Source: Naegleria gruberi
Lineage: Eukaryota
Length of the DNA: 64,000 bases
NCBI GenBank assembly: GCA_000004985.1
Contig: GG738862.1
Strand: one strand, 5' to 3'
Numbering within the stretch: the first letter of the stretch is position 1; every line of letters starts with the position of its first letter. Below the pieces are notes generated by a model, which was not told where the DNA came from, searched no databases, and was given only the letters and a program-made list of their open reading frames with translations. Shown here one piece after another: positions 10,666 through 56,520 of the stretch. The translations under genes and the position numbers were made by a program.

Positions 10666-10783
10666 GACTACAGCACCACAGGTTCCCAAGTTGTCTCCAA
10701 CCTCAGTACTGATGTGGCTCGACGATGCTTAACTTCTCAAATCGGACGGGATGAGGTGCATTCATCGTGATATGGCCGTAGCC
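10666..10783 (-). rRNA. 5S ribosomal RNA, copy 1
   Basis: Reverse complement reads GGCTACGGCCATATCACGATGAATGCACCTCATCCCGTCCGATTTGAGAAGTTAAGCATCG…GGTTGGAGACAACTTGGGAACCTGTGGTGCTGTAGTC. The ends pair as helix I, box C (GAAGTTAAGC) is present, and a T5 run follows the 3' end (pol III terminator). Confidence 0.9.
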
Positions 10784-11697
10784 ATTCATTTCTTCAAAAT
10801 GTTAAACTTCAATGTAGAATCCAACAGTTTGCTTTAAGCACCTACCAAATCTGTTCTTTGTATTCAACAACTCCTGTTCACACAACCCAGACCAAAAAAT
10901 CTAGGAAATCAATTTGGAATTTTCAACATTACGGACAATTCCAATCCAACAACTAACTGCACACCTCATTCCACAAACACTGTTCTTTTGAAAAAAAAAC
11001 CTTTAAATGAAACGAAAACAAGCAGCTCGTATCTTGAAAGCATTCCTATCTCTGTTGAGGATTCTCATTCTACATTTCTATCCACAACTGTTTGGTCAAT
11101 TCCAGAGCAAAGTGGCGCAAGTTGTGGAGGAGAAGAAGGGTCAATTGATATTGAAAAGGAAGGCACTCAAACAATTCCTCCAGAAATTATATACCATCCT
11201 CTTGTTTAGAATGTTATTGAGGAAGAGGAAAAGTAGATTCACAATGATCGGAATTAGAAAATTTACTACTCCACAACAACAACAACAACAATCTAATGAT
11301 GGAGCAGTAAGAACATTAACTGCATTGGCCAATAACTAGGAAGGGAAATATTGGATAAGAAAAGAATCAAAGTGTTGCTGAGAAGTTGAGAATGAGAATT
11401 GTAAAGCGTGAAGAATCATGTGATGAAGGTTCAAGTGAAGTATTTCGTGGATTCTCAATCAATATATCTCTAGAGAGAAGATGCTGATTTCAAATAGTTT
11501 GGATAATGGTGCATTATAATGATGAAGATAATGAGAAAATTGGATATTCGAATATCTGGATAAGAAAGGTATTGGATAAGAGTGCATTAGTCAACTTGTA
11601 ATATTGAGCAGGTTGAAACTAGTTGAAGATATGATAATTTACAATTTGTAATATTTTGTAATTGTTGAAATTAATTAAATAAAAATTATTAAAAAAA

Positions 11698-13185
11698 ATG
11701 ACTGACAGTTCGTGGCAGATTATTCCTGATGAAATTTTGATCAATATTTTCGAATATTTACATTCGATTGATTATGTCCGTATTGCCCACGTTTCTTCTC
11801 ACTGGAGAAAACTTGCAAAATTATCCTATTGTCATTCGGTGTGGAATTTACAACAATATCACAAGGATTTGAGTAGAACTACTCCATCACTCTGTCAACC
11901 TAAACTAAATAATGATGTTTTATGGTTGTTTTCGAAAGTTTATTTATCAATTGATCCCAATAATGTGAAATTTATTAATGAATTTATCAAGAATTTGTTA
12001 ACTTCTAAAAAATTGAAACATTTAATTGTGGAAAATCCAAGTTTTTTGGAAAGTTCGAATATTTTCAAACAGTTTGATAATGGAGCGACAAGTTGTGAGA
12101 GTCTTACTGCTTTGGAGATTGTTTCTAGTTATGCTATGATTGACTGTATGGATAAATTTCCAAATTTGAAAGTTCTCAAGTTTAGAAATTGTTATGGAGT
12201 AATTGGAATTTCATTGATGAAACATATTCATCAAAGATTGGAGAGTTGTGCTATTGAAAATTCATATTTTGATTCAAAAACGTTTTTCAATGCGATTGAG
12301 AATGGAGTTTCGAATTTAAAAAAGATTAGTTTAGAGTTTATCAAAAAAGAAGATTTAACTGCATTGAGCTTGAGCTCGTTTCCCTATTTGAGAAAATTGA
12401 AAATATCAAAAATTAACCTTCAAATAGCTCACTTATTATGGAATTCGTTTAGTCATCAATTGAAAAAGTTCAATATTACTCTGGCTGATGATGAATATCA
12501 AGTTTTTGATTTTCAAAAAAGAAATGCTCCTCATTTGAAATCATTGCAACTTTGCAACTCAACTTTGGATGAATGTGATATAGAAATGCCTCAATTAGAG
12601 CATTTGGAATTTTATTATGTATACGAATTGCCAGTAATCATTTCCAAATTCGTTGGATTGAAAACTCTAATTATTAGAAACTGTTACGAAATGGATTTTT
12701 CCAATATTGGTCAACTCTTGCAATTACGACACTTGGAAGCAAGTAATGTTGGCGATTTGGAAGCTGTTAGACATATTTCGAAATTGGAAAATATCATTCA
12801 TTTAACAATTTCAGGAATTAATGATGCTGGAAGTGAAATTATTTCTAATGGAAATCTTAGAAACCTGAAATGCTTGGAAATTGATTTTGAAAATCCTGAG
12901 AAATCAGCTTACTATCTCTCACACTCCAATTTAACAAACTTGAGAATTATTCGATTCACTCTCAATGAAGAGGCAAGCAAAATATTCAGTCGAACGAGCT
13001 TGGAATTGAGGACTGTTATTCTAAACGAAATATGTGAAGTTTCACACCTTATCAAGAACTTGCAATGTGACCAAATTGTTGTGTGGACATTAAAACGCCT
13101 CCCCAACTTGGACCAAAATTCCAAATTGGCTATGAAATGCAATAAGAGATTAATATTCACCAATGATTACAAACCATTCCTTTAA
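11698..13185 (+). CDS. F-box / LRR-like protein (495 aa)
   Basis: N-terminal F-box (IPDEILINIFEYLHSIDYVRIAHVSSHWRKLA) followed by Leu-rich repeats. Intact ORF. Confidence 0.75.
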   Translation: MTDSSWQIIPDEILINIFEYLHSIDYVRIAHVSSHWRKLAKLSYCHSVWNLQQYHKDLSRTTPSLCQPKLNNDVLWLFSKVYLSIDPNNVKFINEFIKNLLTSKKLKHLIVENPSFLESSNIFKQFDNGATSCESLTALEIVSSYAMIDCMDKFPNLKVLKFRNCYGVIGISLMKHIHQRLESCAIENSYFDSKTFFNAIENGVSNLKKISLEFIKKEDLTALSLSSFPYLRKLKISKINLQIAHLLWNSFSHQLKKFNITLADDEYQVFDFQKRNAPHLKSLQLCNSTLDECDIEMPQLEHLEFYYVYELPVIISKFVGLKTLIIRNCYEMDFSNIGQLLQLRHLEASNVGDLEAVRHISKLENIIHLTISGINDAGSEIISNGNLRNLKCLEIDFENPEKSAYYLSHSNLTNLRIIRFTLNEEASKIFSRTSLELRTVILNEICEVSHLIKNLQCDQIVVWTLKRLPNLDQNSKLAMKCNKRLIFTNDYKPFL

Positions 13186-13489
13186 AGATGATCAAAATTA
13201 AAAAGACAACCACCACACCAGCTAGCCGACGAGGAAATAACAGTAACCAAACCAGCTGGGGTGGTAAGTTGCCCTTTCTCCTTTCGAAGATCAATGGAGA
13301 CCAGAGGCCGTCGGGGTTGCAGTGTGATCACTTATTCCTCGCTATCTTAAACATGATTAGGGCATGTTTCTGTACCAGTTTAGATTGTAAATAACTCCCT
13401 CTTGTGGTTTATTAATTTTATTATTTTTATTTATGAACTTTCGATTTCAGAACCATATGAGGAAAACAAAGATTTGTTGTGATATGAAT

Positions 13490-17859: not shown

Positions 17860-18090
17860 TTTATTTCTTCTAATATTAAGGGGAGGCTCACACAACAAAC
17901 AAGTTAGGGGTTATAGTTAAGCTCCCTAAAACCACATTCTTGGAATCGATATCGGAGATGTGTAAATCTTGTCAAACTATCATCACTATTTCTGTTATTG
18001 TAATACACTGTTCAAAAATGTATTCAGTAGTCATTGATTTTCCTCTTTGACCAAAATTCAACACAAAATTCATATGGCTCGCCACGTTTA

Positions 18091-18161
18091 CCGTCTCGGG
18101 AGGAATCGAACCTCCGTCAATGGATTCAAAGTCCACTATGCTACCATTACACCACGAGACG
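18091..18161 (-). tRNA. tRNA-Gln(UUG)
   Basis: Reverse complement CGTCTCGTGGTGTAATGGTAGCATAGTGGACTTTGAATCCATTGACGGAGGTTCGATTCCTCCCGAGACGG gives a complete cloverleaf: 7-bp acceptor, D arm, anticodon loop CTTTGAA, T arm GGAGG/TTCGATT/CCTCC and discriminator G. Confidence 0.8.
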
Positions 18162-19651
18162 AGCACATAGACGCTAAAATTCTTGTGTTGATATAACGCT
18201 ACCATTACGTCTGTTTTTTAATTGTTGCTGGAATCAGTTTCAATGACATTCAACCCTGTTGTAAAGTTAGGTCAATAAATATTGAATGCAAAGTTATAAC
18301 AAGGATTGGTCACATGATTGAACATCAGTTTCGAATTTTCTTTCAACTCGTTGTATACAACAGTTGTTTTAATAGAAGAATATTCTATCATATCCAAAAA
18401 GTTTAGTTTCCTTCCGAATGCATCAAAAAATACCAAATCCGGAGATTCTATTACTAAAAGTAAAATTTAGTAATTTGAATTTCAAAGTTGGTGCAAAAGT
18501 TCTGAAAATCAAGTACAGTTCCCTAATCGTTGAACACTGCATCAAAATTACCTCTATTGTAAATTGTCAACCCTTTCCTGCAAATATATCAACATTGTTT
18601 AGGTTGTCTTTGATTGAAATTTTACTCCCATTCACCAAAACAATATTTTTCATTCATTGGAATGCTCTTCCTTTTCAGTTTACAAATCATCCAAACTCTC
18701 TGCTTTCAATTTGAATATTAAATCATGAAATTTGTCAATTATTAATAACTTGAAGTCTATTGAAATGCAATTCACATGAATTACCTAACAAGTTGAATTG
18801 GTAATCAGACCTGCCATGTGTTGATGGAGATAACGAGGTCTGTGTTTCTCAATATCGACATCCAAAAATTCATCTTTTCAACGTTCATAATCAACACATT
18901 CATATGAATCATAACGAATCTTTCAACATGCATCAATGAAATCCACAATTTCACTTATTTAAATATTTGAAACTTAGTTGGCATTCTGCATTCTCTTTGA
19001 ACATTAAGTGGCGTTCATGGTTTTTCAAATCCACAAACGGAAAGGAAATCTATATTCCGGTTTATCGATAAACACCAAAACACTCTTCTTGTCTCATGTG
19101 TCAGCTATTGATTTTGGTACGATCACCGCTTTATTTACATGTTCCTTCTCATGTCAACTAGAAATGTCTTTATTGATACTTTCTACAGAGCAATAATTTT
19201 GAGAGAATCTTTGTAAGAGCACAATTGAGGCCATCATGTTGACTCTTATTGGACAATCTAAACTGAAATGGTTAGTTTGATAGCTTGTTTGTGATGTGAT
19301 GCATTTTCTCTTGTGAATCACAGAGAGGAGCGAGTTGTTATTATGGTCCAAAAACGCAAAACCACAGTCCAAATGAATAAAAGCCATGAACAATGCGACT
19401 TGTTACCTCAAAACAAATCAAAACAAATAACATCACACCCTGAAGCGAGTGCTAACAACGAACAGCCTTGTTTTCCGAAGCCTTTGAAAACTTATTCTCC
19501 CCAACACCCAATAATTGCTACAGGCTGATCCATCCTAAGATAAATTCTATTAGGTGTTATCACTCTACCAATTAATTCAATCTACCCTTTTAATTTATTA
19601 TCCACTTTATCGCGAGACGTCTCTCTTACACACACAAGTCCAAAGCCTTGA

Positions 19652-24999: not shown

Positions 25000-27900
25000 A
25001 TGGGTAAAGACGATATTGTTTTCTTACCATCCAAAGAAGTGGTAATTAGTACAATTAAAAAGTTTCAAACAGATTCTTCACTTGAATGGATATTCTTTGC
25101 CTATCAAGAATCTGATCCATCCACAAAACTTGCCAAAGGAAACAGCAATACTATTGAATTGGCTCGTACAGGAAGTGAACCACTCGATAGAAATCAATTG
25201 CAAACTCTTCGTGATGTGACAAAGGATTCTGAAGAAAGTATCAAGGCCTACCTCTCTCCACACAGTGCCAACTACTTTATTGCTCGTATTGATGCAAATC
25301 GTTACATTTTCATTAATTGGATTGGTACAAAAACCAAGACATTACAAAAAACCAGAGTAATGACTCACAGACTTGAATTGAAATCAATGGCTGAGAAATT
25401 ATTGTCCATGTCCTTTGTTTTCGATCATAATGGAATTGATGAGTTTGACAAATTGGTTAATATTGTTGATTCTTCTCGTTCTTTTGAATTTGAAAATATG
25501 AAAGATCAAAAACAAACATCCTCTCCACGTACCACTACTACCACAACTGCTACTACTGGTGGCTCTTCTCAAGTTGCCTCTGCCTCTGCTTCTTTAAAGT
25601 CTGCTTCTTCTTCATCATCATCATCATCTAGTAATACTACTAGTGCTAGTTCTTCTTCAAGTGGTAACAATTCTGCCACTAAGGGATCCTTAATGAACAG
25701 ATACAATCCTCAAACTTTAACAGAACAAGAACAAATCAATGCTAGACGTCATCAACGTTCTGGATCCAAACCACCAAAACTTGGACTTGCTGCAATTATG
25801 CGTCAAGTGTTGAAATTGGACGAAACAAACATTACTCCACTCTTGAAACAACGTTCATTTGGTTGGTTATTGTTGGGTTATAATGCTGATGGTTTGTGTC
25901 AAGTTGAAGGTCAAGGAAATGATCAATGTACATTCCCAGATCCACTCTTTGATGCTTTGAAAGAAGATGATATGCAATATATTGTTCTTCGTTGGGTTTT
26001 ATCTGACACTGGTTATGGTGGTGATGTTGAAAAGACCTATTTCTTGTCATATGTTGGTTCTGCTGTTAATTCTGTTCGTCGTGGTAAGGTAAATCAACAC
26101 AAACAAGAAGTTTATGATTATGTTAATAAGCATTTCCAATTGGGAGGTGAAGTTACAATTACTGCTCTTGAAGAATTGAATGTTGATTACATTAAGAATG
26201 TCATGTTGGGTAATAGAAGTGCTAATACTGTTACTTTGACAGATTGGGGTACTGTTCCAGTTAAGGCATCCCCAGTTGTTGGACAAACTAGTCAACCAAA
26301 GGCAACTGCTTCTCCAATCAATTCTCCAAGAAACATCAAGAAGGAAACAGCTACTGCTTCTGTTGCTACATCATCAGTTACAACAGATGCTCCAGAAAAA
26401 CCAATCGAAAGAAAGGGAAGTGAATTGTTGAGTAAGATTAAATTGGGATTCAAGGAAGGAAAATTGAAGGGTATCAAGGGAACTACTCCTGAACCTGCTG
26501 AAGATCTTACTTCACCTAAGAATTTGAAATCTCCTGGAAGAGAACCACTTAAATCACCAGGTAGAGATGGTCTTACTTCTCCTGGAAGAAAAAAGTCAAC
26601 CAAGGGTGGTATTCTCAGTTTCTCAGCTAACAATATGGACAAATTCTCTGCTAGTTTGAAAAAGAAGGATATTGTAAAGGTTCCTAATTTGGGAACTGGT
26701 CAAAACGCCATCAAGATTGAAGACGAAACTAAGGTTATTGACAAGTTGTACGATCTCAAAGATCCACTCGATAGAAATAACCAATGGGTTTTATTCAGTT
26801 ATCCAAATGACAAGACTCTCAATATTTTATCGCTTGTTGATAGTGGTTCTGAACCAATTTCTAAATCTGTTGCTGTCACCTCTCAATTGACTGATAATGG
26901 TGTCAAGTACTTTATTCACAAGTTCTACGTTGAAAGAAATGGAAGAATTGAAGCTAAATTCAGAGTTATTATCTGGAGAGGTAAATCTATTAGAGCTTAC
27001 TTCAAGGCCATTTGTACTAACCATGCCATGAAGTTGGTCACTACTATTGCTCCTGTCATTACTCAAGTTGAAGGTGATCCAATTATTTTGACTGATGTTG
27101 CTGAAGTTCCAAATGTTGTCTTATCATTGGAAGGTTTTGGTACTCCACTCGATCATGATTCTGCCATTAAGAAATTGGAAGAAAAATTGGCTGCTGCTGA
27201 ACAACGTGAAAAGCAAAAGGAAACTTCATCACCATCCAATAAGATCCAACACGAAAAGAGAGTGTCAATGAAGAAGGCTGATTACAATGCAGGTATTGAA
27301 GCTGGTTTGAAGATTTTGAACGAAGAAGAATTGATTCAAAGAATGAAGGAATTGCAAAGTGATGAAAGTGCCGTTTCCTGGGTCACCATTAGTTATAAGG
27401 ATTCCAAGACTTTGCAACTTGATGGATATGGTTCTGGAACTGCTGAATCATTCAAATCCAAGTTTACTGATGATAAGGTTTACTACACATTGTACAAACA
27501 ATTCTTGGAAGAATTGGGTGGTGCTCCAAAGACTATTCTCATTGCTTGGGTTGGTCAAGATGTCAAGCCAATGGCCAAGGCCTCTACTACTCCTCATCGT
27601 ATTGCTCTCTTCAAGTATTGCTTACGTCACGTCACTTTATCTAGTGAATATCAACCAATCACTATCAATGATTTGGATAATGATTCAATCTTTGGTAAGG
27701 TTTCTGGTGGAAGCAAGAGTGGATCAAGTGGTGTTGTTTCTAAATCATTTGGTGGTAAGAGTCAATCCCTTACACTCGCTGATGAGAATATCATTCTCGA
27801 ACAAGTTAAGGATTTGAATTCTGATGCCACTGCCACAAACTGGGTCAAGCTAGGATATAATGAATCTGGACATTTGAAATATGAAGAAAAGGGACAAGGT

Positions 27901-29859
27901 GGTTTGGCTGAATTTGAACGTCGTCTCTCTGATGATTCTGTAAATTATGTACTTTACAAGACCTATGTTGAACACAGTCCAAAGATTACTTTGATTACAT
28001 GGGTCGGTTCTGGTGTCACTGCTGGTACTGCCAAGGCAAGAGCTACCACACATCAACTTGAATTGGAAGCTTTCGTTAAGAAGGTCTTCACTGTTGCTGC
28101 TTTATATCAAGCTTTAGAAAGAGAAGAATTGAAGGAAGAATTAATCTACAAGAAGGTTGCTGGTTCCAACATTATTATCGCTCCAACTGCTGTCTCAAAG
28201 GGTACATTTGGTGGTAGAGATTCTAGTTTGAAATTCGATAATGATCAAGCTGTTCTTGATGCTTTCAAGGAATTGAGAGGAAATTCTGGAATCAGATGGT
28301 TGCTTTTCGAATATGTTCCTGGAAATCAATACACTGTTCGTGTTTCTCAAATCGGTAAGGGAGGTGTCAGAAACTTCAAACAATACCTCACTGATAACGT
28401 TGTTTGCTATGTTGTCATGCGTTTGACATTTATGGAATATTCAGATGTTGCCAAGGCTATTGTCATTACATGGGTTGGTGAAAATGCTCAAAGTTTCCAA
28501 AAAGCCCTCTCAGGTGGTCATAGAATCAACTTGTACGATTTCACTAGAAAGCAAATCTCAGTTGGTGGTGAATATCAACCTGAAAGTCTTGAAAGCTTGT
28601 CTGATGAAGATTTGCTTTCCAAGATTACTGGTACTAAGAGTGATAATGCTGGTGATGCTTTAGAAGAAAAGATTCAACAACAACGTGCCTTTGAAAGAGA
28701 ACGTATTGTGCAAGTTCAACCAACTATTGAAGTTAAGGATTCCAAGCAATATATTGGTGAATTTAAGGATATTGATTTTAATGGAAAGGAAGAAATCAAG
28801 AAGGCCTTGTTAGAACTTTCTGAAAAGTGTAGAAAGGAACAACATGATAGAGCTCTTGAAGATGCCACCATTCACTACATTAAGATGAAGTTGACTGGTA
28901 AGGAATTACGTGATGTAGTCATTGAATCTACTGGAGATGGTGCATTGAGTGAAGAATGGAGAGCTACTCATCTCGATTCAAAGGAATTCCTTCTCTTCAT
29001 CTTTGGTTTGTTCACATCTGAAGGTGGTTATGGTATGATGACCAAGTATGTCTTTGTTCAATGGACAGGACATGATACCAAGCACTTGTTGAAGGCCAAG
29101 GCCAGTGAAATCAGACAATCCATCTACAATTTCTGTAATAAGGAGTTGAACATGTCTGGCGAAATTCAAGGTTGCACTAAACCAGAACACATTACCAAGA
29201 AGTTGGTTTTGGAAAAGATTACCGGTTCAAACGTTCGTGGTAGTGAAATGAGATTGGAAAAGAAGGACAAGAAATTCGAAGGCTTGGGTAAGGAAAAGAA
29301 GAGTAAACTTGTCATCAAAGACCAAGAAACATTGAATCACTACGTTGAAGATATGATTCTCCAAGATTACCTCGAAAAAGATGAGGATAAGAAGGACGAT
29401 GATGATCCAGAAGAATGGAGAAATCACAAGAGAATTACTAAAGGTAAACTTGATTGGATCTTGTTGAGCTATTCCAAGGATTCCATTGATGAAATCAACG
29501 TTACTGCTCATGGTGAAGGTGACGTTCAAGCTTTTAAACAACACTTGAAACCAGATAGTGTCAACTTTGTAATTATCAGAGTTTTCCACGCTCAAGGTTA
29601 TGCAAAGGATATTTCCATGTTGACCGATAATAGAATCAACCTTGCCAAGCCATACTTTACTCTCATCTATTGGAAGGGAGAAAATGTTCAAGTTTTAGAA
29701 AAGGCTCTCACTTCTCATCACTTTAATGCATTCCACAAGTTGATGACTCAAAAATTCATGAGAATGAAATCATCACTCCAAGGTTCAACTTATCAAGCTG
29801 AAACTTATGAAGAATTGGACATGGAACGTATTAAGAAATTGATGAGATTGTATGATTAA
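25000..29859 (+). CDS. Giant actin-binding-type protein composed of about 8 tandem ADF-H (coactosin/drebrin-like) domains, 1619 aa, single exon
   Basis: Repeated about 130-aa modules, each with a W(V/L)LxxY start, GxGG(L/V)xE(F/L) centre and a (I/L)xW(V/T)GxxV…(K/H) tail, as in coactosin (e.g. WVKLGYNESGHLKYEEKGQGGLAEFERRL…ITLITWVGSGVTAGTAKARATTHQ). Ser/Thr-rich linkers separate the modules. Confidence 0.85.
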   Translation: MGKDDIVFLPSKEVVISTIKKFQTDSSLEWIFFAYQESDPSTKLAKGNSNTIELARTGSEPLDRNQLQTLRDVTKDSEESIKAYLSPHSANYFIARIDANRYIFINWIGTKTKTLQKTRVMTHRLELKSMAEKLLSMSFVFDHNGIDEFDKLVNIVDSSRSFEFENMKDQKQTSSPRTTTTTTATTGGSSQVASASASLKSASSSSSSSSSNTTSASSSSSGNNSATKGSLMNRYNPQTLTEQEQINARRHQRSGSKPPKLGLAAIMRQVLKLDETNITPLLKQRSFGWLLLGYNADGLCQVEGQGNDQCTFPDPLFDALKEDDMQYIVLRWVLSDTGYGGDVEKTYFLSYVGSAVNSVRRGKVNQHKQEVYDYVNKHFQLGGEVTITALEELNVDYIKNVMLGNRSANTVTLTDWGTVPVKASPVVGQTSQPKATASPINSPRNIKKETATASVATSSVTTDAPEKPIERKGSELLSKIKLGFKEGKLKGIKGTTPEPAEDLTSPKNLKSPGREPLKSPGRDGLTSPGRKKSTKGGILSFSANNMDKFSASLKKKDIVKVPNLGTGQNAIKIEDETKVIDKLYDLKDPLDRNNQWVLFSYPNDKTLNILSLVDSGSEPISKSVAVTSQLTDNGVKYFIHKFYVERNGRIEAKFRVIIWRGKSIRAYFKAICTNHAMKLVTTIAPVITQVEGDPIILTDVAEVPNVVLSLEGFGTPLDHDSAIKKLEEKLAAAEQREKQKETSSPSNKIQHEKRVSMKKADYNAGIEAGLKILNEEELIQRMKELQSDESAVSWVTISYKDSKTLQLDGYGSGTAESFKSKFTDDKVYYTLYKQFLEELGGAPKTILIAWVGQDVKPMAKASTTPHRIALFKYCLRHVTLSSEYQPITINDLDNDSIFGKVSGGSKSGSSGVVSKSFGGKSQSLTLADENIILEQVKDLNSDATATNWVKLGYNESGHLKYEEKGQGGLAEFERRLSDDSVNYVLYKTYVEHSPKITLITWVGSGVTAGTAKARATTHQLELEAFVKKVFTVAALYQALEREELKEELIYKKVAGSNIIIAPTAVSKGTFGGRDSSLKFDNDQAVLDAFKELRGNSGIRWLLFEYVPGNQYTVRVSQIGKGGVRNFKQYLTDNVVCYVVMRLTFMEYSDVAKAIVITWVGENAQSFQKALSGGHRINLYDFTRKQISVGGEYQPESLESLSDEDLLSKITGTKSDNAGDALEEKIQQQRAFERERIVQVQPTIEVKDSKQYIGEFKDIDFNGKEEIKKALLELSEKCRKEQHDRALEDATIHYIKMKLTGKELRDVVIESTGDGALSEEWRATHLDSKEFLLFIFGLFTSEGGYGMMTKYVFVQWTGHDTKHLLKAKASEIRQSIYNFCNKELNMSGEIQGCTKPEHITKKLVLEKITGSNVRGSEMRLEKKDKKFEGLGKEKKSKLVIKDQETLNHYVEDMILQDYLEKDEDKKDDDDPEEWRNHKRITKGKLDWILLSYSKDSIDEINVTAHGEGDVQAFKQHLKPDSVNFVIIRVFHAQGYAKDISMLTDNRINLAKPYFTLIYWKGENVQVLEKALTSHHFNAFHKLMTQKFMRMKSSLQGSTYQAETYEELDMERIKKLMRLYD

Positions 29860-32566: not shown

Positions 32567-32579
32567 ATATCTACAGATT

Positions 32580-33245
32580 TCAAAATCCACTACCACCACC
32601 AAAATTAAAACCACTACCGTTACTTGGTTTAATTGGTGGTTTAGTTCCAAATGTAGTACTAGTACTTCCAAAAGCAAATCCAGTAGTAGGTTTAGTTTCC
32701 ACATTTTCCAAATATTTCGAAATCAATTGTTGATGGGACTTTGAAATCAATTCAGTCAATCCATCCATACTGTAATATCTTGCCTCAACAAACAAACTCT
32801 CCAAAGCATGATTATCACTAGGAAGCACAAAATTCTTCACATCACCTCCACTTCTCAAATAATTCAAAATATATCTGAAATAAGTTGGATCTCTATCAAT
32901 AAAAATTGATTCATCAGCCGAATCTTTGATTAAATTATGTAAACCAGAGACAAGTGAATTGAAATAATTTGGATCATAGTGCGTATTTTCTAATGATTTT
33001 GAAGGTTTGATCAATTTTTGAGTTAAAGTTTCTTTGGAAACTGCAAAAATAACGCCTCCAACGTTTAGTTTAATTATTTCACCATCTTGGAATTCGTATT
33101 TGGTGGAAACTTTTTTCAATTCAAGGAATTCGTGTTCTCTCTTTGTCATGGAAGTGCTCCAAGAGGAAAGTTTTTCTTCTAGTTGTTTCATAGTTTCCGA
33201 AATATCTTGTTTGATGGTGTCAAAAGTATTCTCAGAGTTGTTCAT
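32580..33245 (-). CDS. BTB/POZ (KCTD/T1-type) domain protein with C-terminal FG-repeat tail
   Basis: BTB signature IIKLNVGGVIFAVSKETL…IFIDRDPTYFRYILNYLRSG. C-terminus GFAFGSTSTTFGTKP…GFNFGGGSGF. The stop lies 13 bp from the stop of the convergent gene at 32566. Confidence 0.75.
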   Translation of the reverse strand: MNNSENTFDTIKQDISETMKQLEEKLSSWSTSMTKREHEFLELKKVSTKYEFQDGEIIKLNVGGVIFAVSKETLTQKLIKPSKSLENTHYDPNYFNSLVSGLHNLIKDSADESIFIDRDPTYFRYILNYLRSGGDVKNFVLPSDNHALESLFVEARYYSMDGLTELISKSHQQLISKYLENVETKPTTGFAFGSTSTTFGTKPPIKPSNGSGFNFGGGSGF

Positions 33246-33415
33246 TTTTTTTGATTAGTTTCGAATTCCACGAAACCATTCCAATAATTTAATAATCCAA
33301 TTTATTATTTGTTTTGTCATCTCGTATTTACCTGGTCTGTAACCAAAACATTTAGATGAAGTAGGTTATTGTCCATTTCTCAACTGATTTAACAAAAAGA
33401 AGTTAATTTGAAAAA

Positions 33416-33533
33416 GACTACAGCACCACAGGTTCCCAAGTTGTCTCCAACCTCAGTACTGATGTGGCTCGACGATGCTTAACTTCTCAAATCGGACGGG
33501 ATGAGGTGCATTCATCGTGATATGGCCGTAGCC
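33416..33533 (-). rRNA. 5S ribosomal RNA, copy 2 (identical to copy 1)
   Basis: Same 118-nt sequence as 10666..10783, with the same 3' flank (T-run, CAAATTAAC). Confidence 0.9.
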
Positions 33534-33774
33534 ATCTACAATCTTAAATTCTGAAATATATTCAAAATGTTAAACTAAATGTAGCGTCCCACACCAGAAA
33601 CATTTACAATTGGAAGAAAATTATGATCAGAAACAAGATTTTCGAATTGGTGTTTCTGGAGTGACTGGTGTAGTTGGAGTAGCCACAACAATTTTCACAA
33701 CACTGAACGAATCACTTTGAATATTTTTGGATAGATATTGTTAAATTTGAAGATTCAAATGCCAAACCATCACA

Positions 33775-40349: not shown

Positions 40350-40723
40350 ATTATTTTTATTTTGTAAAGTTAATATAATATTTAAGATTAACAGACGAAC
40401 ATTCGACAATGTAGCTACCATTGAATCCATTCAAACAAACAAAAAAATGAGCGTGAATATATAAAATGGTCGACCAATTTTCTATTGAATTGTATGATTG
40501 GAATAGATTCTCCAAGAATGTAAGTACACGATTAGTTTCGAATAATTAAATGTGAAATGAAATGCAGGTATTGCTCGATAGAACTGCTTTGATTTTTAAA
40601 CCTTATGATGTCACTCCAAAAGAAAACACTTGGATTGGGATGAAAGTGGAAAAGTGGAAGATCTGATTCCACAACTGAATAAACCCAGATCAAACCAAAA
40701 CCATAACTTCTCTCAAAACTTCT

Positions 40724-40795
40724 GCTGACGGACGGGATCGAACCGGCGACCAATGGCTTATTAGACCAACGCTCTACCGACTGAGCTACGCCAGC
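40724..40795 (-). tRNA. tRNA-Ile(AAU)
   Basis: Reverse complement GCTGGCGTAGCTCAGTCGGTAGAGCGTTGGTCTAATAAGCCATTGGTCGCCGGTTCGATCCCGTCCGTCAGC folds as a cloverleaf with anticodon loop CTAATAA, TTCGATC T-loop and discriminator A. One mismatch in each of the anticodon and T stems. Confidence 0.75.
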
Positions 40796-41134: not shown

Positions 41135-42553
41135 TTGACAAGAAAAAATAAGCAAACAAAGCAGATCTGCAAGATTTTGAAAATTAATTTCGGCGGAACT
41201 ATTCATCAAAAAAACATGGAGAAAAAACTCGAGTCTCTCCAACGAGAAGAAATATTTTCAGATGATATTTGTTTTGAAATAATTTCCATGATTGATGATT
41301 CGTGGTTTATTTTGAATAATTGTTCCTTGATTTCAAAACAATTCTTTAATGTGATCAAGGAACGTTCAAAACTTTTTATTGAATTTAAAAAAAAATTTAC
41401 AGAAAAAAGAATTGAACTATTCACAAAGAGTCAATTTATGAATAGTATTGTTAAAGTTAAATTTTCAACAAATTTGTTTGTCTCTATTGAAAATCACAAA
41501 TTCATAAGTGAAATGAAACAATTAACTTCACTTAATATTTCTAACAATCAAATTAATGATGAAACAGCCAAATCAATAATTGAAATGAAACGATTAACAT
41601 CACTTGATATTGGTGGAAATCAAATTGGTGATGAAGGAATCAAATTAATTAGTGAAATGAAACAATTAACATTACTTGATATTAGTGGAAATAGTATTGG
41701 TGATAAAGGAGTCAAACCAATTAGTAAAATGAAACAATTAACATCACTTAATATTTATAACAACGAAATTGGTGTAGCAGGATCCAAATTTATAATTGAA
41801 ATGAAACAATTAACATCACTTGATATAAGCTACAATGAAATTGGTGATGAAGGAGCCAAATCAATAAGTGAATTGAAACAATTAACATCACTTACTGTTA
41901 GTGGAAATCAAATTGGTGATGAAGGAATCAAATTAATTAGTGAAATGAAACAATTAACATTACTTGATATTAGTGGAAATAGTATTGGTGATAAAGGAGT
42001 CAAACCAATTAGTAAAATGAAACAATTAACATCACTTAATATTTATAACAACGAAATTGGTGTAGCAGGATCCAAATTTATAATTGAAATGAAACAATTA
42101 ACATCACTTGATATAAGCTACAATGAAATTGGTGATGAAGGAGCCAAATCAATAAGTGAAATGAAACAATTAACATCACTTACTATTAGTGGAAATCAAA
42201 TTGGTGATGAAGGAATCAAATTAATTAGTGAAATGAAACAATTAACATTACTTGATATTAGTGGAAAATCAGTTGGTGATAAAGGAGTCAAATCAATTAG
42301 TAAAATGAAACAATTAACATCACTTACTATTTATACCAATGAAATTGGTGTAGCAGGAGCCAAATTTATAAGTGAAATGAAACAATTAACATCACTTGAT
42401 ATAAGCTACAATGAAATTGGTGATGAAGGAGCAAAATCAATAAGTGAATTGAAACAATTAACATTACTTGATATTAGTGGAAATGGAATTGGTGATGAAG
42501 GATCCAAATTTATAATTGGAATGAAACAATTAAAATCACTTGATATTCAGTAG
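41135..42553 (+). CDS. F-box-like / RNI-type LRR protein (paralog B, 472 aa; alternative start 41216)
   Basis: N-terminal EIFSDDICFEIISMI motif, then about 16 repeats of a 24-aa LRR (MKQLTSLDISGNQIGDEGAKSISE). Confidence 0.7.
   Translation: MTRKNKQTKQICKILKINFGGTIHQKNMEKKLESLQREEIFSDDICFEIISMIDDSWFILNNCSLISKQFFNVIKERSKLFIEFKKKFTEKRIELFTKSQFMNSIVKVKFSTNLFVSIENHKFISEMKQLTSLNISNNQINDETAKSIIEMKRLTSLDIGGNQIGDEGIKLISEMKQLTLLDISGNSIGDKGVKPISKMKQLTSLNIYNNEIGVAGSKFIIEMKQLTSLDISYNEIGDEGAKSISELKQLTSLTVSGNQIGDEGIKLISEMKQLTLLDISGNSIGDKGVKPISKMKQLTSLNIYNNEIGVAGSKFIIEMKQLTSLDISYNEIGDEGAKSISEMKQLTSLTISGNQIGDEGIKLISEMKQLTLLDISGKSVGDKGVKSISKMKQLTSLTIYTNEIGVAGAKFISEMKQLTSLDISYNEIGDEGAKSISELKQLTLLDISGNGIGDEGSKFIIGMKQLKSLDIQ
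41627..42490 (+). repeat. Higher-order tandem repeat inside the LRR gene: three 288-bp units (4 LRRs each) at 41627..41914, 41915..42202 and 42203..42490. The first two are about 98% identical
   Basis: GGTGATGAAGGAATCAAATTAATTAGTG… recurs at exactly 288-bp spacing, with only a few substitutions between units 1 and 2. The 72-bp sub-period corresponds to one LRR. Confidence 0.8.
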
Positions 42554-42876
42554 TATTATACAGTCAATCCTTTGTTAAGCACTAACATATGGTTCCTTTA
42601 AATTACGATTAGTTAACCTAATATAAATGTAGCAAGTATTTTAACAGTCCAACCTGCATTACAATGGACAGTGTTATTGTAAAAGGAGTGGGATTGAAAC
42701 AAGCAAGGAATTTCATAGATTGGGAGTAACTGGCTGTCAGGAATCAACAGGCAACAGAATTAATCGAAAAGGAAAATGGAATGATAGATTAATGACTTAA
42801 AAATCGATTTGACACTCTATCATCAATCGAGCTATTGTTCCATCTTCCTGGTTGTTACTAACTTCCACCATAAAAA

Positions 42877-45492: not shown

Positions 45493-46533
45493 ATGAGCCA
45501 ACAAGAAAAGGAGGAAACAGTGGCACCAACCAAAGAAGAATCACCACAGCCAGTTTTTCCCGATGATGTGATATTTGAAATTATTTCCTTCAATAATGAT
45601 TTTAAATTTACAGTAAGGAGTTGTGCGTTGGTTTCTTCACAGTGGTTTAATGTCATTTTGGAAAGATCAAAACTTTCACTCACACACAACAGTAAAAAGA
45701 AAATTAATGGCCAATTTTTACAGCGTATTGTAGCTGTCAATGGGATGAAAAAATGTGATTGTATTCCATTTCTTGATCAAGTATTTGATCTCAAGAACTT
45801 GACTACCCTTGACGTTAATTGTATGAAAATTAAAGATGAAGGAGTAAAGATAATAAGTGAAATGAAACAGTTGACCAATCTTAATGTAGGCAGCAGTGGT
45901 ATTAGTGTTGAGGGAGTCAAATATATCAGCGGCATGAATCAATTAACTAATCTCAATATAAGCCGCAATAATATACGAGCAGAAGGAGCCCGTTACGTTA
46001 GTGAAATGAAACTATTAACCAATCTTAATATTTATTTAAACGGTATTAGAGCAGAAGGTACCAAATACATCAGTGAAATGAAAGAATTGACTTGTCTTAA
46101 TATAATGAGTAATGCAATTCACGATAAAGGCGCAGAACACCTTCGTCAAATGCCTAAATTGAATACACTCAATATTAATTCAAATAGTATCAGTGTAGAA
46201 GGAGCCAAATTTATTAGTGAAATACAGTCATTAACTAATCTTGATATTGGTTTCAATACTATTGGAGATGACGGTGTCAAATTTATAAGCAAAATGGAAA
46301 AACTAACAAAACTTTATACAATGTACATTAATATTGGAGAAAAAGGAGCCAAACACATTAGTGAAATGGAACAATTAACTAGTCTCAATATTAATTCGAA
46401 TAATGTAGGAACAGAAGGAGCAAAGTACTTATGTGAAATGAAACATTTAACATATATGAATATTTGCAACAACAATGTAGACAAACAATCCCAATTTATC
46501 AAAGATGCTACAGTCTGTTTCATCCAATGCTGA
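45493..46533 (+). CDS. F-box-like / RNI-type LRR protein (paralog C, 346 aa)
   Basis: N-terminal FPDDVIFEIISF motif and about 10 LRRs of the MKQLTNLNI.SN.I..EGAKYISE type. More diverged at DNA level than paralog B. Confidence 0.7.
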   Translation: MSQQEKEETVAPTKEESPQPVFPDDVIFEIISFNNDFKFTVRSCALVSSQWFNVILERSKLSLTHNSKKKINGQFLQRIVAVNGMKKCDCIPFLDQVFDLKNLTTLDVNCMKIKDEGVKIISEMKQLTNLNVGSSGISVEGVKYISGMNQLTNLNISRNNIRAEGARYVSEMKLLTNLNIYLNGIRAEGTKYISEMKELTCLNIMSNAIHDKGAEHLRQMPKLNTLNINSNSISVEGAKFISEIQSLTNLDIGFNTIGDDGVKFISKMEKLTKLYTMYINIGEKGAKHISEMEQLTSLNINSNNVGTEGAKYLCEMKHLTYMNICNNNVDKQSQFIKDATVCFIQC

Positions 46534-52999: not shown

Positions 53000-53204
53000 A
53001 TAATTCATGTGTTGTTTAAATGATTGCTCTTGATATTTTATGCCCACCTCTATTTAGGAACTGAGAATACTGTAGTGAGAAGAAGGTTAAATGGACTTTT
53101 GCAAACAAGAAACAAGTTGACAAAAGATTTTTATCCAAATCAAACCAATGACATTATTTTACAATGAATTTATCTGCAGTTTGCTGGAAATCAAAATTAA
53201 AAAA

Positions 53205-54410
53205 ATGGCAACACGTGCAACGGATGATTTGGCACCACCTTTGAAGAAGATGAAAACATCATTTGCCTCTTCTGCTTGTCGATTGTGCCATGATGAAATT
53301 TTAAATATTATGCAATTTTTAACAATTAAAGATGTCGTGTCTTGTTTATTGATTGACACCAATTGGAATATTGTCGGCTCATCAAATGCAATATGGAAAC
53401 CACTCTATGATGAGTTTTTCATGAATGAATTCTTTGAGTGGGATAGACAATTTTTGCAAGATTCTAACAAGCTTGAAAGTGATACTTTTGTTGCAATTGA
53501 TTATGATGATGACTATGAAGATGATGAAGAGGATGAAGAGGATGATGAGGATGAGTATGATGATAACAAACAGGAAAAAAAGAAAGTTGATAAAAGGAAG
53601 GATGATAAAGTAGTGGAAAAACTGGAAGAAACACAAAATGATATTGATCAAATCAAGGACAAGAATGGAAATATTAGTTATTATCGATTATTTCAATTTG
53701 ATTGTCATTATCCGCAAATTGATGAATCATATGTTGATATTATTGACAAATTGAGAAATATAGATTCAATTACCAATGTTGAAACTTTGAAAGAATTAAT
53801 CAAACACATTTGGACAGATAATACAGATTCAGATACTTGGAAAAAAGTTATTGGAACATCAGAAATGGTTCTTGGCAAATCGAATAGGTTATGGAGAAGT
53901 AAGCCACTTCTTGTTTTCCTTTCCATGGTCTTACTGATATTATTCAATAAGGAAAAAATTAATTATTCAGATAGTACCATCCAATTAACAGGACCTAGAG
54001 ATCAACCAGCTTGTGAAATGCCAATATTAGCTTTTTGTAAAATGCTTTCCTCAAATAGATCGAACATTTCCAAATTATGTTCCAAACACAAAATTGATAT
54101 CAAGTCTCTGGGAGCATTTCTAAAAGTTTCTGAACCAAAGACAGAAGAGAGTGAACGCAAATGGTACTACAACGATCGAAGGCAACCAGATGTTTATTTA
54201 TCAGTTATGAAAAACCTATTCAGTCACAAGAATGATGGAACATTTAGTGCTAAACAACAAAATAGTGATTTCGCCAATCCTGATACCGAGGAGTTTGCTC
54301 CTTCCTTTTTCAATGCTGGTTCCTCATTGGTTTGTTTTCAATCTGTGACAGCCCATATCGTTGGAAATGTTATCAAATTTGAATTTATTACAACAGCTAA
54401 ATATTACTGA
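53205..54410 (+). CDS. Hypothetical F-box-like protein with acidic D/E-rich tract (about 400 aa)
   Basis: N-terminal CHDEILNIMQFLTIKDVVSCLLIDTNW resembles an F-box, followed by poly-D/E and a C-terminal unique domain. Confidence 0.55.
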   Translation: MATRATDDLAPPLKKMKTSFASSACRLCHDEILNIMQFLTIKDVVSCLLIDTNWNIVGSSNAIWKPLYDEFFMNEFFEWDRQFLQDSNKLESDTFVAIDYDDDYEDDEEDEEDDEDEYDDNKQEKKKVDKRKDDKVVEKLEETQNDIDQIKDKNGNISYYRLFQFDCHYPQIDESYVDIIDKLRNIDSITNVETLKELIKHIWTDNTDSDTWKKVIGTSEMVLGKSNRLWRSKPLLVFLSMVLLILFNKEKINYSDSTIQLTGPRDQPACEMPILAFCKMLSSNRSNISKLCSKHKIDIKSLGAFLKVSEPKTEESERKWYYNDRRQPDVYLSVMKNLFSHKNDGTFSAKQQNSDFANPDTEEFAPSFFNAGSSLVCFQSVTAHIVGNVIKFEFITTAKYY

Positions 54411-54482
54411 ACATTTCAAAGATGAAGGAACTATTCCAGTAAAATCTTAATTTATCAACGAACTTGATTCTTTCAGAAAAAA

Positions 54483-55118
54483 ATGTCAGAACTTCTCAAG
54501 GTAATTATTGGAGATTCCGATGATGAAGAAGATCTCGAAGATGATGATTTCGACTATTCTTCTTCTGCTTCCGAAAGTATTGAAGAAGAAGATGCCAATG
54601 AATGAGTGCCATACCAATATTTTGGAAAAGTATTTGGAATACCTATACATGGGTTCTCTTTATTTGGAAAATTCAGAGATGGTCCACAAATTTTTGGAAT
54701 TTGTTAAAGAGATTTCCCCAACCAGACATTATCCTTTTATTGAAAAGATTTATTCTATGGAAAATAGAAAGGATTTGAGTTTGACGAGAGAAATATTGAA
54801 GGAATTGTACAAGGATTTGGCTACTCTAATTGATGACAGCACCTACAGTGATTTGGTTGTTGTTTTGGATCAGGACAATCCATTCGTCCAACCCTCTCCT
54901 TCTTGGTTATTTCACTATTGGACAAGAGCACTGTTTGGGTAGTTCACGAAATTGCCATTCTCTACAATGAAAAATCCTTAGAAAGTGAATGTGAGCTCTA
55001 CATTGCCAATAATTTTGAAGTTTTACATTCTGCCTCTTCCTTTTTAGAGCTTCCAGAAATGGCTAGAATTAAAATTAAGCAATTATACAAAAAGAAGCAT
55101 CATAAAAAGACAAAATAA
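54483..55118 (+). CDS. BTB/BACK-like protein gene with apparent frameshift (ORFs 54508..54942 and 54903..55118 in different frames; possible short acidic 5' exon from 54483)
   Basis: The second frame carries the BACK-like sequence VVHEIAILYNEKSLESECELYIANNFEVLHSASSFLELPEM. No intron of plausible length joins the frames. Confidence 0.3.
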
Positions 55119-55453
55119 GGTTTTTTGATCTTTTATATGTGGTACTTTAGAAGAACCCATTACTTCTGAAAAGAAAAGTATTCAGATGTTCCAAAGAAGT
55201 GTAGCATGCCAATAATCTCCACCAATAGATGTTGTGTGTAATGGAACTGGAAAGACAGTTGCTAGTATGTTACAATAAAAATCTCAATCTGATTTAACAA
55301 AAAGAGGTTCCATAAAAGCAAAAAGAAAGTTACAATCGACTTGTTGATGATCATATCATATTAAATTGAACTCATTAGGGAAGTGATACAAGAATAGAAA
55401 ATGTAGAATAATTTATTGACAATAATTGAAAGAATCTATGATATTTTGCTAAC

Positions 55454-55912
55454 TTAACCACCTCTCAATCTCAATACTAAATGCACAGTTGAATCCTTTT
55501 GAAGATTGTAATCACCAATAGTTCTTCCATCTTCCAATTGCTTACCGGCATAAATCAATCGTTGTTGATCTGAAGGAATACCTTCCTTATCAAATATCTT
55601 TTGTTTCATATTCTCAACAGTATCATTCGATTCCATTTCAATAGTGATTGTCTTTCCAGTTAAGGTTTTTACAAAGAGTTGCATTCCTCCTCTTAATCTC
55701 AACACCAAATGAAGAGTGGAGTCTTTTTGAATGTTGTAATCATTAATAGTTCTGCCATCTTCTAATTGTTTACCTGCAAAGATGAGTCTTTGTTGATCTG
55801 GTGAAATTCCTTCCTTATCTTGTACCTTTTGTTTCACATTTTCAATTGAATCATTAGATTCAACCTCCAAAGTGATAGTTCTTCCAGTGAGTGTCTTGAC
55901 AAATAATTGCAT
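55454..55912 (-). CDS. Di-ubiquitin-like protein: two head-to-tail ubiquitin-fold repeats, each ending RLRGG, about 85–88% identical to canonical ubiquitin
   Basis: [76 protein letters not shown] followed by a second repeat. K6, K27, K29, K33, K48, K63, L8, I44 and V70 are retained. The two repeats differ substantially at the DNA level. Confidence 0.85.
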
Positions 55913-56402
55913 TATGTTTGTTGTCTTGTTTTTCTTATTGTTTTTCTTGAATTCAAAACATGTTTCCTTGCTTTTTATACTGTTTTGAGATGTTTGTATT
56001 TTTAGAAAGTAGTTCTTCTTTGCAAAGAAATTCTTTCAATGAACCGATTTTTGTTTCTGGACACAAACTTGGTTCATGTTTTGTAATTATGTGCTGTAGT
56101 TGTTCATACAATAATCACATCTTTTTCGATTTTTATCTTCTTATTTGTGGTGGTTGATTGTTTAGCTCTCTTTTCAATTGAATTTGTTTACCATTTAAAT
56201 TTGAAAGATTATAATCAATATTATTACGATGTCTAGTTCCACTTATAATATTCTTGGAGACAAACCAACTTGTTCAATTTTGTTTCATCTTCTTCATTAA
56301 GAAGAGAGTTGGCATTTGTTTTGTTGTGGAAATATCATCATCAGTTATCTATTTATTTATTAAGGAAATAAAATACAAATCAACAAACAATAAGAGAAAA
56401 AA

Positions 56403-56520
56403 AGACTACAGCACCACAGGTTCCCAAGTTGTCTCCAACCTCAGTACTGATGTAGCTCGACGATGCTTAACTTCTCAAATCGGACGGGATGAGGTGCATT
56501 CATCGTGATATGGCCGTAGC
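56403..56520 (-). rRNA. 5S ribosomal RNA, copy 3 (1 substitution relative to copies 1 and 2)
   Basis: Same 118-nt sequence, with GATGTAGCTCGAC in place of GATGTGGCTCGAC. The upstream TTCAAAATGTTAAACT element is conserved. Confidence 0.9.

What the first reader, a model, noticed from the sequence alone, without database searches (positions are those of the whole stretch)
10666..56520. Three dispersed, co-oriented 5S rRNA genes with conserved flanking modules
Identical 118-nt 5S genes (one SNP in copy 3) sit about 23 kb apart at 10666-10783, 33416-33533 and 56403-56520, all on the minus strand, embedded between protein-coding genes and not in a tandem array or rDNA unit. Each is followed by a T-run. 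Copies 1 and 2 share the 3' flank CAAATTAAC. Each is preceded (5' on the transcribed strand) by the element AGTTTAACATTTTGAA, at -10 in copies 1 and 3 and displaced by about 23 nt in copy 2. The near-regular spacing and shared flanks suggest either segmental duplication or a 5S-associated dispersal mechanism, and the upstream element is a candidate promoter module. The GGTTGGAGACAAC segment resembles dictyostelid 5S, which hints at lineage.
Basis: seen in the sequence. Interest (0 to 1): 0.55.

Follow-up and report, generated by a model that had tools for sequence, protein, structure and literature searches.

The report
Dispersed chromosomal 5S rRNA genes, Naegleria
These are three ordinary, intact copies of the roughly 270-member, chromosome-scattered 5S ribosomal RNA gene family of the amoeboflagellate Naegleria gruberi, already catalogued in 2012; their even 23-kb spacing is chance, and the short shared flanks are at most a small promoter-proximal unit.

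Summary
Rfam 5S_rRNA scores 105/105/103 bits at 10665-10783, 33415-33533 and 56403-56521, all on the minus strand. Each gene ends in a T-run. Copy 3 has one SNP, C68U, which keeps a G·U pair. The window is Naegleria gruberi scaffold_18. All three genes are already in Table S1 of Feng et al. 2012, which lists 279 putative copies.

Segmental duplication is excluded at both DNA and protein level. Only the gene plus 13-30 nt of flank is shared.

The regular spacing is chance. Genome-wide gaps between copies run from 1.1 to 413 kb, and one near-equal gap pair among 95 matches the 0.95 expected.

The 16-mer AGTTTAACATTTTGAA is real and occurs only three times in the window. It ends at -10 in copies 1 and 3 and at -28 in copy 2, an 18-nt shift rather than 23. 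It is absent from the syntenic copy in a related Naegleria, from a further metagenomic copy, and from the two tRNA upstream regions. The proximal 30 nt upstream are modestly conserved and AT-rich. That fits a TATA-like TFIIIB site or shared descent, not a proven module.

The dictyostelid hint is wrong. Verdict: already known, low interest.

The parts
10665..10783 (-). 5S rRNA gene copy 1 (119 nt including the first T of the terminator)
   Evidence: Rfam RF00001, 105.4 bits, full model. Corresponds to R33539, scaffold_18:42664-42780, in Table S1 of PMC3369914.
33415..33533 (-). 5S rRNA gene copy 2, identical to copy 1. It lies in the 530-bp divergent gap between a BTB-domain ORF (32580-33245, -) and an ABC-C transporter gene (from 33775, +).
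   Evidence: Rfam 105.4 bits. Pfam hits for the neighbours. A syntenic 5S sits upstream of the orthologous ABC gene in L001. Corresponds to R33540 in Table S1.
56403..56521 (-). 5S rRNA gene copy 3, with one SNP (C68->T at 56454, G-C to G·U). It lies between a di-ubiquitin ORF (55454-55912, -) and a phospholipase-B-like gene (from 56745, +).
   Evidence: Rfam 102.7 bits. SNP position. Neighbours. Corresponds to R33542 in Table S1.
10661..10665 (-). T5 run, the Pol III terminator of copy 1
   Evidence: Sequence. T-runs of four or more T are the Pol III termination signal (established knowledge).
33411..33415 (-). T5 run, the Pol III terminator of copy 2
   Evidence: Sequence.
56397..56403 (-). 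T7 run, the Pol III terminator of copy 3
   Evidence: Sequence.
10793..10808 (-). 16-mer AGTTTAACATTTTGAA at -25..-10 of copy 1. It lies within a 30-nt block (10784-10813) that is 29/30 identical to the block upstream of copy 3.
56531..56546 (-). The same 16-mer at -25..-10 of copy 3, within the shared 30-nt block 56522-56551
33561..33576 (-). The same 16-mer at -43..-28 of copy 2. The 27 nt between it and +1 hold TATATTT (-27..-21) and AGAATTTAAG (-19..-10).
10652..10660 (-). 3' flank CAAATTAAC just after the terminator of copy 1, identical in copy 2
   Evidence: BLAST 10652-10785 = 33402-33535, 100%.
33402..33410 (-). 3' flank CAAATTAAC of copy 2. The orthologue L001 has GCAATTATC here, so the sequence is ancestral at this locus.
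10720..10734 (-). Internal control region box A (+50..+64, AGTTAAGCATCGTCG). The same positions hold in copy 2 (33470-33484) and copy 3 (56458-56472).
   Evidence: Exact match to the degenerate box A consensus used in PMC3369914.
10687..10704 (-). Internal control region box C (+80..+97, GAGGTTGGAGACAACTTG). The same positions hold in copy 2 (33437-33454) and copy 3 (56425-56442).
Evidence: Matches the box C consensus with 2 mismatches, at the canonical position.

Best explanation
The three loci are ordinary, functional-looking members of the chromosomal 5S rRNA multigene family of Naegleria gruberi. The family has about 264 full-length copies scattered singly or in loose clusters over at least 113 scaffolds.

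Each copy is a self-contained RNA polymerase III type-1 transcription unit. It has an internal control region (box A at +50-64, box C at +80-97) that recruits the Pol III factors. Initiation is at the G of GGCTACGG. Termination is in the T5-T7 run immediately after the gene.

The copies sit in intergenic gaps between unrelated protein-coding genes. They are not linked to the 18S-5.8S-28S genes, which Naegleria keeps on an extrachromosomal circle. The even ~23-kb spacing and the shared orientation are coincidences of this window.

The short shared flanks (up to 30 nt upstream, 13 nt downstream) are what remains of small DNA-level duplications of a gene unit of roughly 150-170 bp. This part is inferred, not shown: within that unit the AT-rich proximal upstream stretch probably survives because it serves as a TATA-like landing site for TFIIIB. 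That stretch includes the TTTAAC core of the 16-mer in copies 1 and 3, TATATTT / AGAATTTAAG in copy 2, and the TTTAAA and ATTATAG stretches in the L001 and L003 copies. Upstream elements of this kind are known from other eukaryotic 5S and tRNA genes.
For: Gene identity, structure and terminators: (MFE fold -41.5 kcal/mol with the canonical three-way junction).

Organism. The ABC-C protein is 100% identical to an NCBI N. gruberi protein on a 502,116-nt contig.

Catalogue match: Table S1 of PMC3369914 lists scaffold_18 copies at 42664, 65414 and 88402, with exactly the window's spacings of 22,750 and 22,988.

Dispersal: 264 copies of at least 110 nt on 113 scaffolds, with gaps of 1.1-413 kb.

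No duplication of the intervals.

ICR: box A matches exactly and box C matches with 2 mismatches, both at canonical positions. Feng et al. also report an ICR and a TATA box.

Age and selection: copy 2 is syntenic with a 5S gene upstream of the orthologous ABC gene in a related Naegleria (L001). There the gene is 116/119 identical, while the flanks are only 50-65% identical and the ABC coding sequence is 87.8% identical.

Proximal upstream conservation: 9-12 invariant columns in -30..-1 against 1.5-4 expected (P from 0.003 to below 0.0002), and none in excess in -60..-31.

CERE (the extrachromosomal rDNA circle) carries only 18S/5.8S/28S: PMC5805870.
Against: The promoter role of the upstream stretch is untested. 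Only five copies could be compared, and they represent about three independent lineages. The sequences are 70-77% AT, so similar columns arise easily. In the slid-register control the true register ranks only 11th of 441. With position left free, no motif is shared beyond chance.

The exact 16-mer lies at two different distances from +1. It is lacking in L001 and L003, so as a whole it cannot be a required element.

Feng et al. 2012 did not find TFIIIA in N. gruberi. The textbook type-1 pathway is therefore assumed rather than shown for this organism. Expression of these particular copies was not tested.
Confidence: 0.85

Rival explanations
1. The 16-mer AGTTTAACATTTTGAA is a sequence-specific upstream promoter element, bound by a dedicated factor. 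It drives 5S transcription in Naegleria, possibly replacing the TFIIIA/ICR route.
For: The exact 16-mer is conserved upstream of all three copies and occurs nowhere else in 64 kb. TFIIIA was not detected in N. gruberi by Feng et al. 2012. The proximal upstream region is more conserved than the distal one.
Against: Its distance to +1 differs by 18 nt between copies (-10 against -28). It is absent from the syntenic orthologue L001, where 12 nt of it are missing, and from L003. It is absent upstream of both tRNA genes. Copies 1 and 3 share it as part of a 30-nt block that looks like recent common descent. The ICR boxes are present at canonical positions.
Confidence: 0.12
2. The shared flanks are purely historical, left by recent small DNA duplications or ectopic conversion of a ~150-170-bp unit, and have no function at all.
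For: The sharing is mosaic. Copy 1 shares its upstream with copy 3 and its downstream with copy 2. The downstream CAAATTAAC lies beyond the terminator, so it is unlikely to be functional, and it resembles the orthologous flank in L001. No free-position motif is shared beyond chance.
Against: Orthologous intergenic flanks have decayed to 50-65% identity. Yet the proximal 30 nt across lineages still show an excess of invariant columns. Upstream TATA-like elements are known to matter for Pol III genes in other eukaryotes (PMC7279448, from title and abstract only; S. pombe and Neurospora from my own knowledge).
Confidence: 0.3
3. Segmental duplication of ~23-kb blocks produced the three copies.
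For: Only the near-equal spacings (22,750 and 22,988 nt) and the common orientation. In addition, two tRNA genes lie about 7.3-7.4 kb from copies 1 and 2 on the same strand.
Against: There is no DNA similarity between the intervals apart from the 5S unit. There are no paralogous ORF pairs at that offset. The two tRNAs are different genes, Gln and Ile. The spacing coincidence is expected once among 95 gap pairs.
Confidence: 0.01
4. The copies were spread by a 5S-associated mobile element or by retroposition of 5S transcripts, in the manner of 5S-derived SINEs or Cassandra-type elements.
For: The family is large and dispersed, and the copies share very short flanks.
Against: The shared sequence lies upstream of +1 and downstream of the terminator, outside a Pol III transcript. 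There are no target-site duplications of 7 nt or more around copies 1 and 2, and only one distant 8-mer for copy 3. There is no A-tail, no LTR and no extra repeated body. Copy 2 occupies a position conserved in a related species. The genes are full-length and intact.
Confidence: 0.05

Closest known systems
The N. gruberi 5S rRNA gene set catalogued by Feng et al. 2012 (PLoS One 7:e36878, Table S1, 279 putative genes)
   Same: These are the very same loci. Entries R33539, R33540 and R33542 on scaffold_18 at 42664, 65414 and 88402 reproduce the window's spacings. That paper also reports separation from the rDNA unit, an ICR and a TATA box.
   Different: The paper's Table 1 scores the genes as 'tandem'. 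Its own coordinates show dispersal over 113 scaffolds, with only loose clusters whose smallest gap is 1.1 kb. The 16-mer and the shared flanks are not mentioned in the text I could read; the figure is not held.
Dispersed 5S rRNA gene families of Schizosaccharomyces pombe (~30 copies) and Yarrowia lipolytica (~108 copies); Neurospora crassa from my own knowledge
   Same: The 5S genes lie outside the rDNA unit and are scattered singly through the chromosomes. Each is an independent Pol III unit with its own terminator (PMC2566860). Short conserved upstream TATA-like sequences are described for S. pombe and Neurospora (my own knowledge).
   Different: A different eukaryotic supergroup (Discoba). 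The copy number is higher. There are no tRNA-5S dicistronic fusions as in Yarrowia; the nearest tRNA genes are more than 7 kb away. The large rRNA genes are on an extrachromosomal circle rather than in chromosomal arrays (PMC5805870).
Tandem 5S rDNA arrays of most animals and plants (Xenopus, Arabidopsis)
   Same: The same RNA, the same type-1 internal promoter layout (box A about +50-64, box C about +80-97) and a T-run terminator.
   Different: There is no head-to-tail array and no uniform spacer. The neighbours are unrelated protein-coding genes.
TATA-like upstream boxes of Pol III genes with internal promoters
   Same: An AT-rich hexamer or heptamer lies between about -30 and -15 in all five copies and upstream of both tRNA genes.
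   Different: Function is not tested here. The background is 70-77% AT, so its presence alone is weak evidence.

Membership tests
Eukaryotic 5S rRNA gene (Rfam RF00001) | Covariance-model score above the curated gathering threshold over the full model | tested here: met
   105.4, 105.4 and 102.7 bits against GA 38, model positions 1-120 of 120.
Eukaryotic 5S rRNA gene (Rfam RF00001) | Three-way-junction secondary structure (helices I-V) kept by the variant positions | tested here: met
   The MFE fold reproduces the junction at -41.5 kcal/mol. The copy-3 SNP C68U gives a G·U pair. The L001 and L003 differences lie at positions 21, 22, 24 and 25, in the helix III / loop region.
Pol III type-1 transcription unit | Internal control region: box A about +50-64 and box C about +80-97 | tested here: met
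   Box A matches the consensus exactly at +50-64. Box C matches with 2 mismatches at +80-97. No intermediate-element consensus match lies at the canonical position, between boxes A and C; the matches found start at +61 and +78.
Pol III type-1 transcription unit | Run of at least four T immediately downstream as terminator | tested here: met
   T5, T5 and T7 in the window; T5 in L001 and T4 in L003.
Pol III type-1 transcription unit | Dependence on TFIIIA binding to the ICR | not testable with these tools
   Feng et al. 2012 failed to find TFIIIA in N. gruberi.
Tandem 5S rDNA array | Head-to-tail repeats of gene plus a uniform spacer | tested here: not met
   Self-BLAST and TRF find no such array. 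Genome-wide gaps are 1.1-413 kb and irregular.
rDNA-linked 5S (L-type) | 5S lies within or next to the 18S-5.8S-28S unit | tested here: not met
   No SSU or LSU rRNA hit in the 64-kb window. Naegleria 18S/5.8S/28S are on the CERE (PMC5805870).
Segmental duplication | Extended similarity (DNA, or at least paralogous genes in the same order) between the duplicated blocks | tested here: not met
Yarrowia-type tRNA-5S dicistronic gene | A tRNA gene immediately 5' of the 5S gene, without an intervening terminator | tested here: not met
   The only tRNA genes are at 18090-18162 and 40723-40795, more than 7 kb from any 5S.
5S-derived retroposon (SINE3 or Cassandra type) | A 5S-related head joined to a non-5S body or LTR, with target-site duplications | tested here: not met
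   The gene is full-length and intact and is followed at once by the terminator. Nothing repeated lies beyond 13-30 nt of flank, and there are no TSDs.
   It ends at -10 in copies 1 and 3 and at -28 in copy 2. It is absent in L001 and L003. Only 5 copies were available, so the test is weak for the family as a whole.

The most novel reading that the evidence does not exclude
In Naegleria, where TFIIIA has not been found, 5S transcription might depend mainly on a gene-external proximal promoter rather than on the classical TFIIIA/ICR route. That promoter would be the conserved -30..-1 stretch with a TTTAA(C/G) / AGAATT core. The hexamer AGAATT also turns up upstream of both tRNA genes in the window, at -21 and -30. 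This would be a heterolobosean-specific general Pol III upstream element.
Probability: 0.1. Interest if true: 0.45.

Novelty: already known. Interest (0 to 1): 0.15.

Why it matters
It matters little beyond correct annotation.

These are the only ribosomal RNA genes Naegleria keeps on its chromosomes. The 18S/5.8S/28S genes are on a circle present at about 4000 copies per cell. [quoted passage not shown]

The published description of the family as "tandem" is contradicted by the same paper's own coordinate table.

A few hundred dispersed Pol III units have to match the output of thousands of extrachromosomal Pol I units. That makes their promoters mildly interesting. A genome-wide flank analysis would be cheap.

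Tried and rejected
1. Segmental duplication. Rejected by DNA self-BLAST and by protein all-against-all comparison.

2. A ~23-kb periodicity. Rejected using the 279 coordinates of Table S1.

3. Fetching more N. gruberi copies. Exact-protein look-ups of five window ORFs and of P0001, P0004 and P0005 all returned 'not on record'. The PLB-like neighbour gave only an Acrasis hit. A concatenated query of four flanking genes gave nothing.

4. Collection scans with a 28-nt 5S pattern. There was one metagenome contig, L003, and none in genome contigs or viral contigs.

5. The orthologous locus in a more distant relative, L002 (80% amino-acid identity). It has no 5S, but the upstream synteny is broken there, so it is uninformative about gain or loss.

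6. A free-position motif search among independent flanks. Nothing was shared beyond chance.

7. The 16-mer upstream of the tRNA genes. Absent.

8. TSD search. Negative.

9. The tRNA-5S spacing coincidence of 7.3-7.4 kb. Judged coincidental: the tRNAs are different and the intervals are not paralogous.

10. The dictyostelid lineage hint. Rejected. The GGTTGGAGACAAC segment is simply the box C / loop E-helix IV region, a variant of the pan-eukaryotic consensus (alignment).
Full report
OBSERVATION. A scan of the whole window against Rfam returns three full-length 5S_rRNA matches on the minus strand: 10665-10783, 33415-33533 and 56403-56521. Scores are 105.4, 105.4 and 102.7 bits against a gathering score of 38. 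It also returns two tRNA genes, Gln-TTG at 18090-18162 and Ile-AAT at 40723-40795, both on the minus strand. Copies 1 and 2 are identical. Copy 3 has one change, C68->T at window 56454, which converts a G-C pair into G·U. Each gene runs straight into a T-run of T5, T5 or T7. Copies 1 and 2 continue identically for nine more bases (CAAATTAAC). Copies 1 and 3 share 29 of 30 bases upstream. The exact 16-mer AGTTTAACATTTTGAA occurs three times in the window, only upstream of the 5S genes. Copy 3's coordinates are one base out of register. In copy 2 the 16-mer ends at -28 rather than -10, an 18-nt shift and not about 23.

WHERE IT COMES FROM. The window has 34% G+C and holds long eukaryotic ORFs: F-box/LRR, BTB, ABC-C, a protein with seven cofilin domains, phospholipase-B-like, di-ubiquitin and NHL/EGF kinases. 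The ABC-C ORF is 100% identical to an NCBI Naegleria gruberi protein on a 502,116-nt contig. The dictyostelid guess is therefore wrong. The organism is a heterolobosean. The GGTTGGAGACAAC segment is just the box C / loop E-helix IV region, aligned to the general eukaryotic consensus.

ALREADY CATALOGUED. Feng et al. 2012 (PMC3369914) searched the JGI N. gruberi assembly and listed 279 putative 5S genes. Their scaffold_18 entries at 42664, 65414 and 88402 have exactly the window's spacings of 22,750 and 22,988. The window is therefore scaffold_18 from about 31,999, and the three genes are their R33539, R33540 and R33542. That paper reports no linkage to the rDNA unit, an internal control region, a TATA box, and no detectable TFIIIA. 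The Naegleria 18S/5.8S/28S genes are carried on an extrachromosomal circle, the CERE, present in thousands of copies (PMC5805870). The 5S genes are thus the only chromosomal rRNA genes.

SPACING AND DUPLICATION. DNA self-BLAST finds nothing shared between the ~23-kb intervals except the 5S unit: 153 nt for copies 1/3, 134 nt for 1/2 and 125 nt for 2/3. A six-frame ORF all-against-all comparison finds no paralogous pair at a ~22.8-kb offset. Segmental duplication, recent or old, is excluded. Using Table S1, 264 copies of at least 110 nt lie on 113 scaffolds. The 151 same-scaffold gaps range from 1.1 to 413 kb, with a median of 33 kb and no peak near 23 kb. Of 95 consecutive gap pairs, only the window's own pair agrees within 1%, against 0.95 expected from random pairing. 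The regular spacing is a coincidence. Three copies in one orientation has a chance probability of 0.25. The same table contradicts the paper's label 'tandem': there are loose clusters (29 gaps under 5 kb) but no arrays.

ANATOMY AND MECHANISM. Each copy has box A at +50-64, an exact match to the consensus used by Feng et al. Each has box C at +80-97 with two mismatches. These are the canonical positions of a Pol III type-1 promoter, and each gene has a T-run terminator. No tRNA gene is adjacent, so these are not Yarrowia-type fusions (PMC2566860). There are no target-site duplications, A-tails or extra repeated bodies, so they are not retroposons. Copies 2 and 3 sit in short divergent intergenic regions, and copy 1 sits in a 1.8-kb gap.

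THE FLANKS. Further N. gruberi copies could not be fetched (see 'tried and rejected'). Two more Naegleria-type copies were obtained. L001 is an ENA metagenome contig whose ABC gene is 87% identical in protein to the window's. It carries a 5S gene in the same place upstream of that gene. Copy 2 is therefore older than that species split. There the gene is 116/119 identical. The upstream -30..-1 is 65% identical, -61..-160 is 50%, the downstream is 58%, and the ABC coding DNA is 87.8% (78.7% at third positions). So there is strong selection on the gene and little on the flanks. The 16-mer is not conserved in L001: only GATTTAA remains, and 12 nt are missing. L003 is a JGI metagenome contig with a 106-bit 5S gene. 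It also lacks the 16-mer but has AGAATTAACAT at -19. The tRNA upstream regions lack the 16-mer too.

With position left free, no k-mer is shared by the independent flanks beyond chance. Anchored at +1, the proximal 30 nt have 9-12 invariant columns against 1.5-4 expected (P from 0.003 to below 0.0002), whereas -60..-31 shows no excess. However, the true register ranks only 11th of 441 slid registers. The signal is a loosely positioned AT-rich similarity, not a sharply placed motif. All five copies have an AT-rich hexamer or heptamer between about -29 and -15: TTTAAC, TATATTT, TTTAAAT and ATTATAG.

The hexamer AGAATT is present upstream of copy 2, the L003 copy and both tRNA genes. It was noticed post hoc. 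Random AT-rich sets of five sequences share a 6-mer that widely in only 1.7% of trials, so it is a lead and nothing more.

INTERPRETATION. The best reading is that these are ordinary members of a known dispersed 5S family. The short shared flanks are remnants of small DNA-level duplications of a ~150-170-bp gene unit. Within that unit the proximal AT-rich stretch plausibly acts as a TATA-like TFIIIB site (inferred). The exact 16-mer as a required, fixed-position promoter module is not supported by the five copies available. A genome-wide flank alignment would settle it. The most novel reading still open is an upstream-driven, TFIIIA-independent 5S promoter in Naegleria, which I put at about 10%.

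VERDICT. The feature is already known, and interest is low (0.15).

Noticed in passing
window 41497-42547 (ORF 41135-42553, +); also 45493-46533 and 7991-8797: A 72-nt (24-aa) LRR_6-type repeat array of 14.6 copies, with a 288-nt higher-order period at 93% identity. This suggests recent four-repeat-block expansion inside an LRR protein gene. Two paralogous LRR ORFs lie elsewhere in the window.
   Followed up: partly
window 18090-18162 (-) and 40723-40795 (-): tRNA-Gln(TTG) and tRNA-Ile(AAT) lie 7.4 and 7.3 kb from 5S copies 1 and 2, on the same strand. They mimic the 5S spacing (22.6 kb apart). No paralogy exists between the intervals, so this is judged coincidental.
   Followed up: yes
window upstream of 33533 (-19), 18162 (-21), 40795 (-30); L003 upstream of 657 (-19): The hexamer AGAATT recurs upstream of 4 of 5 independent Pol III genes. 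Random AT-rich sets match this in 1.7% of trials. It was noticed post hoc, and copy 2 and L003 may share it by descent.
   Followed up: partly
window 25000-29859 (+): A 1619-aa ORF with seven cofilin/ADF domains, an unusual multi-ADF architecture.
   Followed up: no
window 55454-55912 (-): A di-ubiquitin gene of exactly two repeats (152 aa) whose two 228-nt repeats are only 77% identical at the DNA level.
   Followed up: no
literature (PMC3369914 Table 1 against Table S1; PMC5805870): Feng et al. score N. gruberi 5S genes as 'tandem', although their own coordinates show dispersal over 113 scaffolds. [quoted passage not shown]
   Followed up: yes
L002 4005-4706 (+): In the more distant Naegleria-like Logan contig, a Glyco_hydro_108 (phage or bacterial-type lysozyme) gene sits directly upstream of the ABC-C orthologue, where N. 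gruberi has the 5S gene. It is a possible horizontally acquired gene.
   Followed up: no
L001 2-610: On the far side of the syntenic 5S gene, L001 does not encode a recognisable orthologue of the window's BTB protein (no tblastn hit). Only the 5S-ABC adjacency is conserved.
   Followed up: partly
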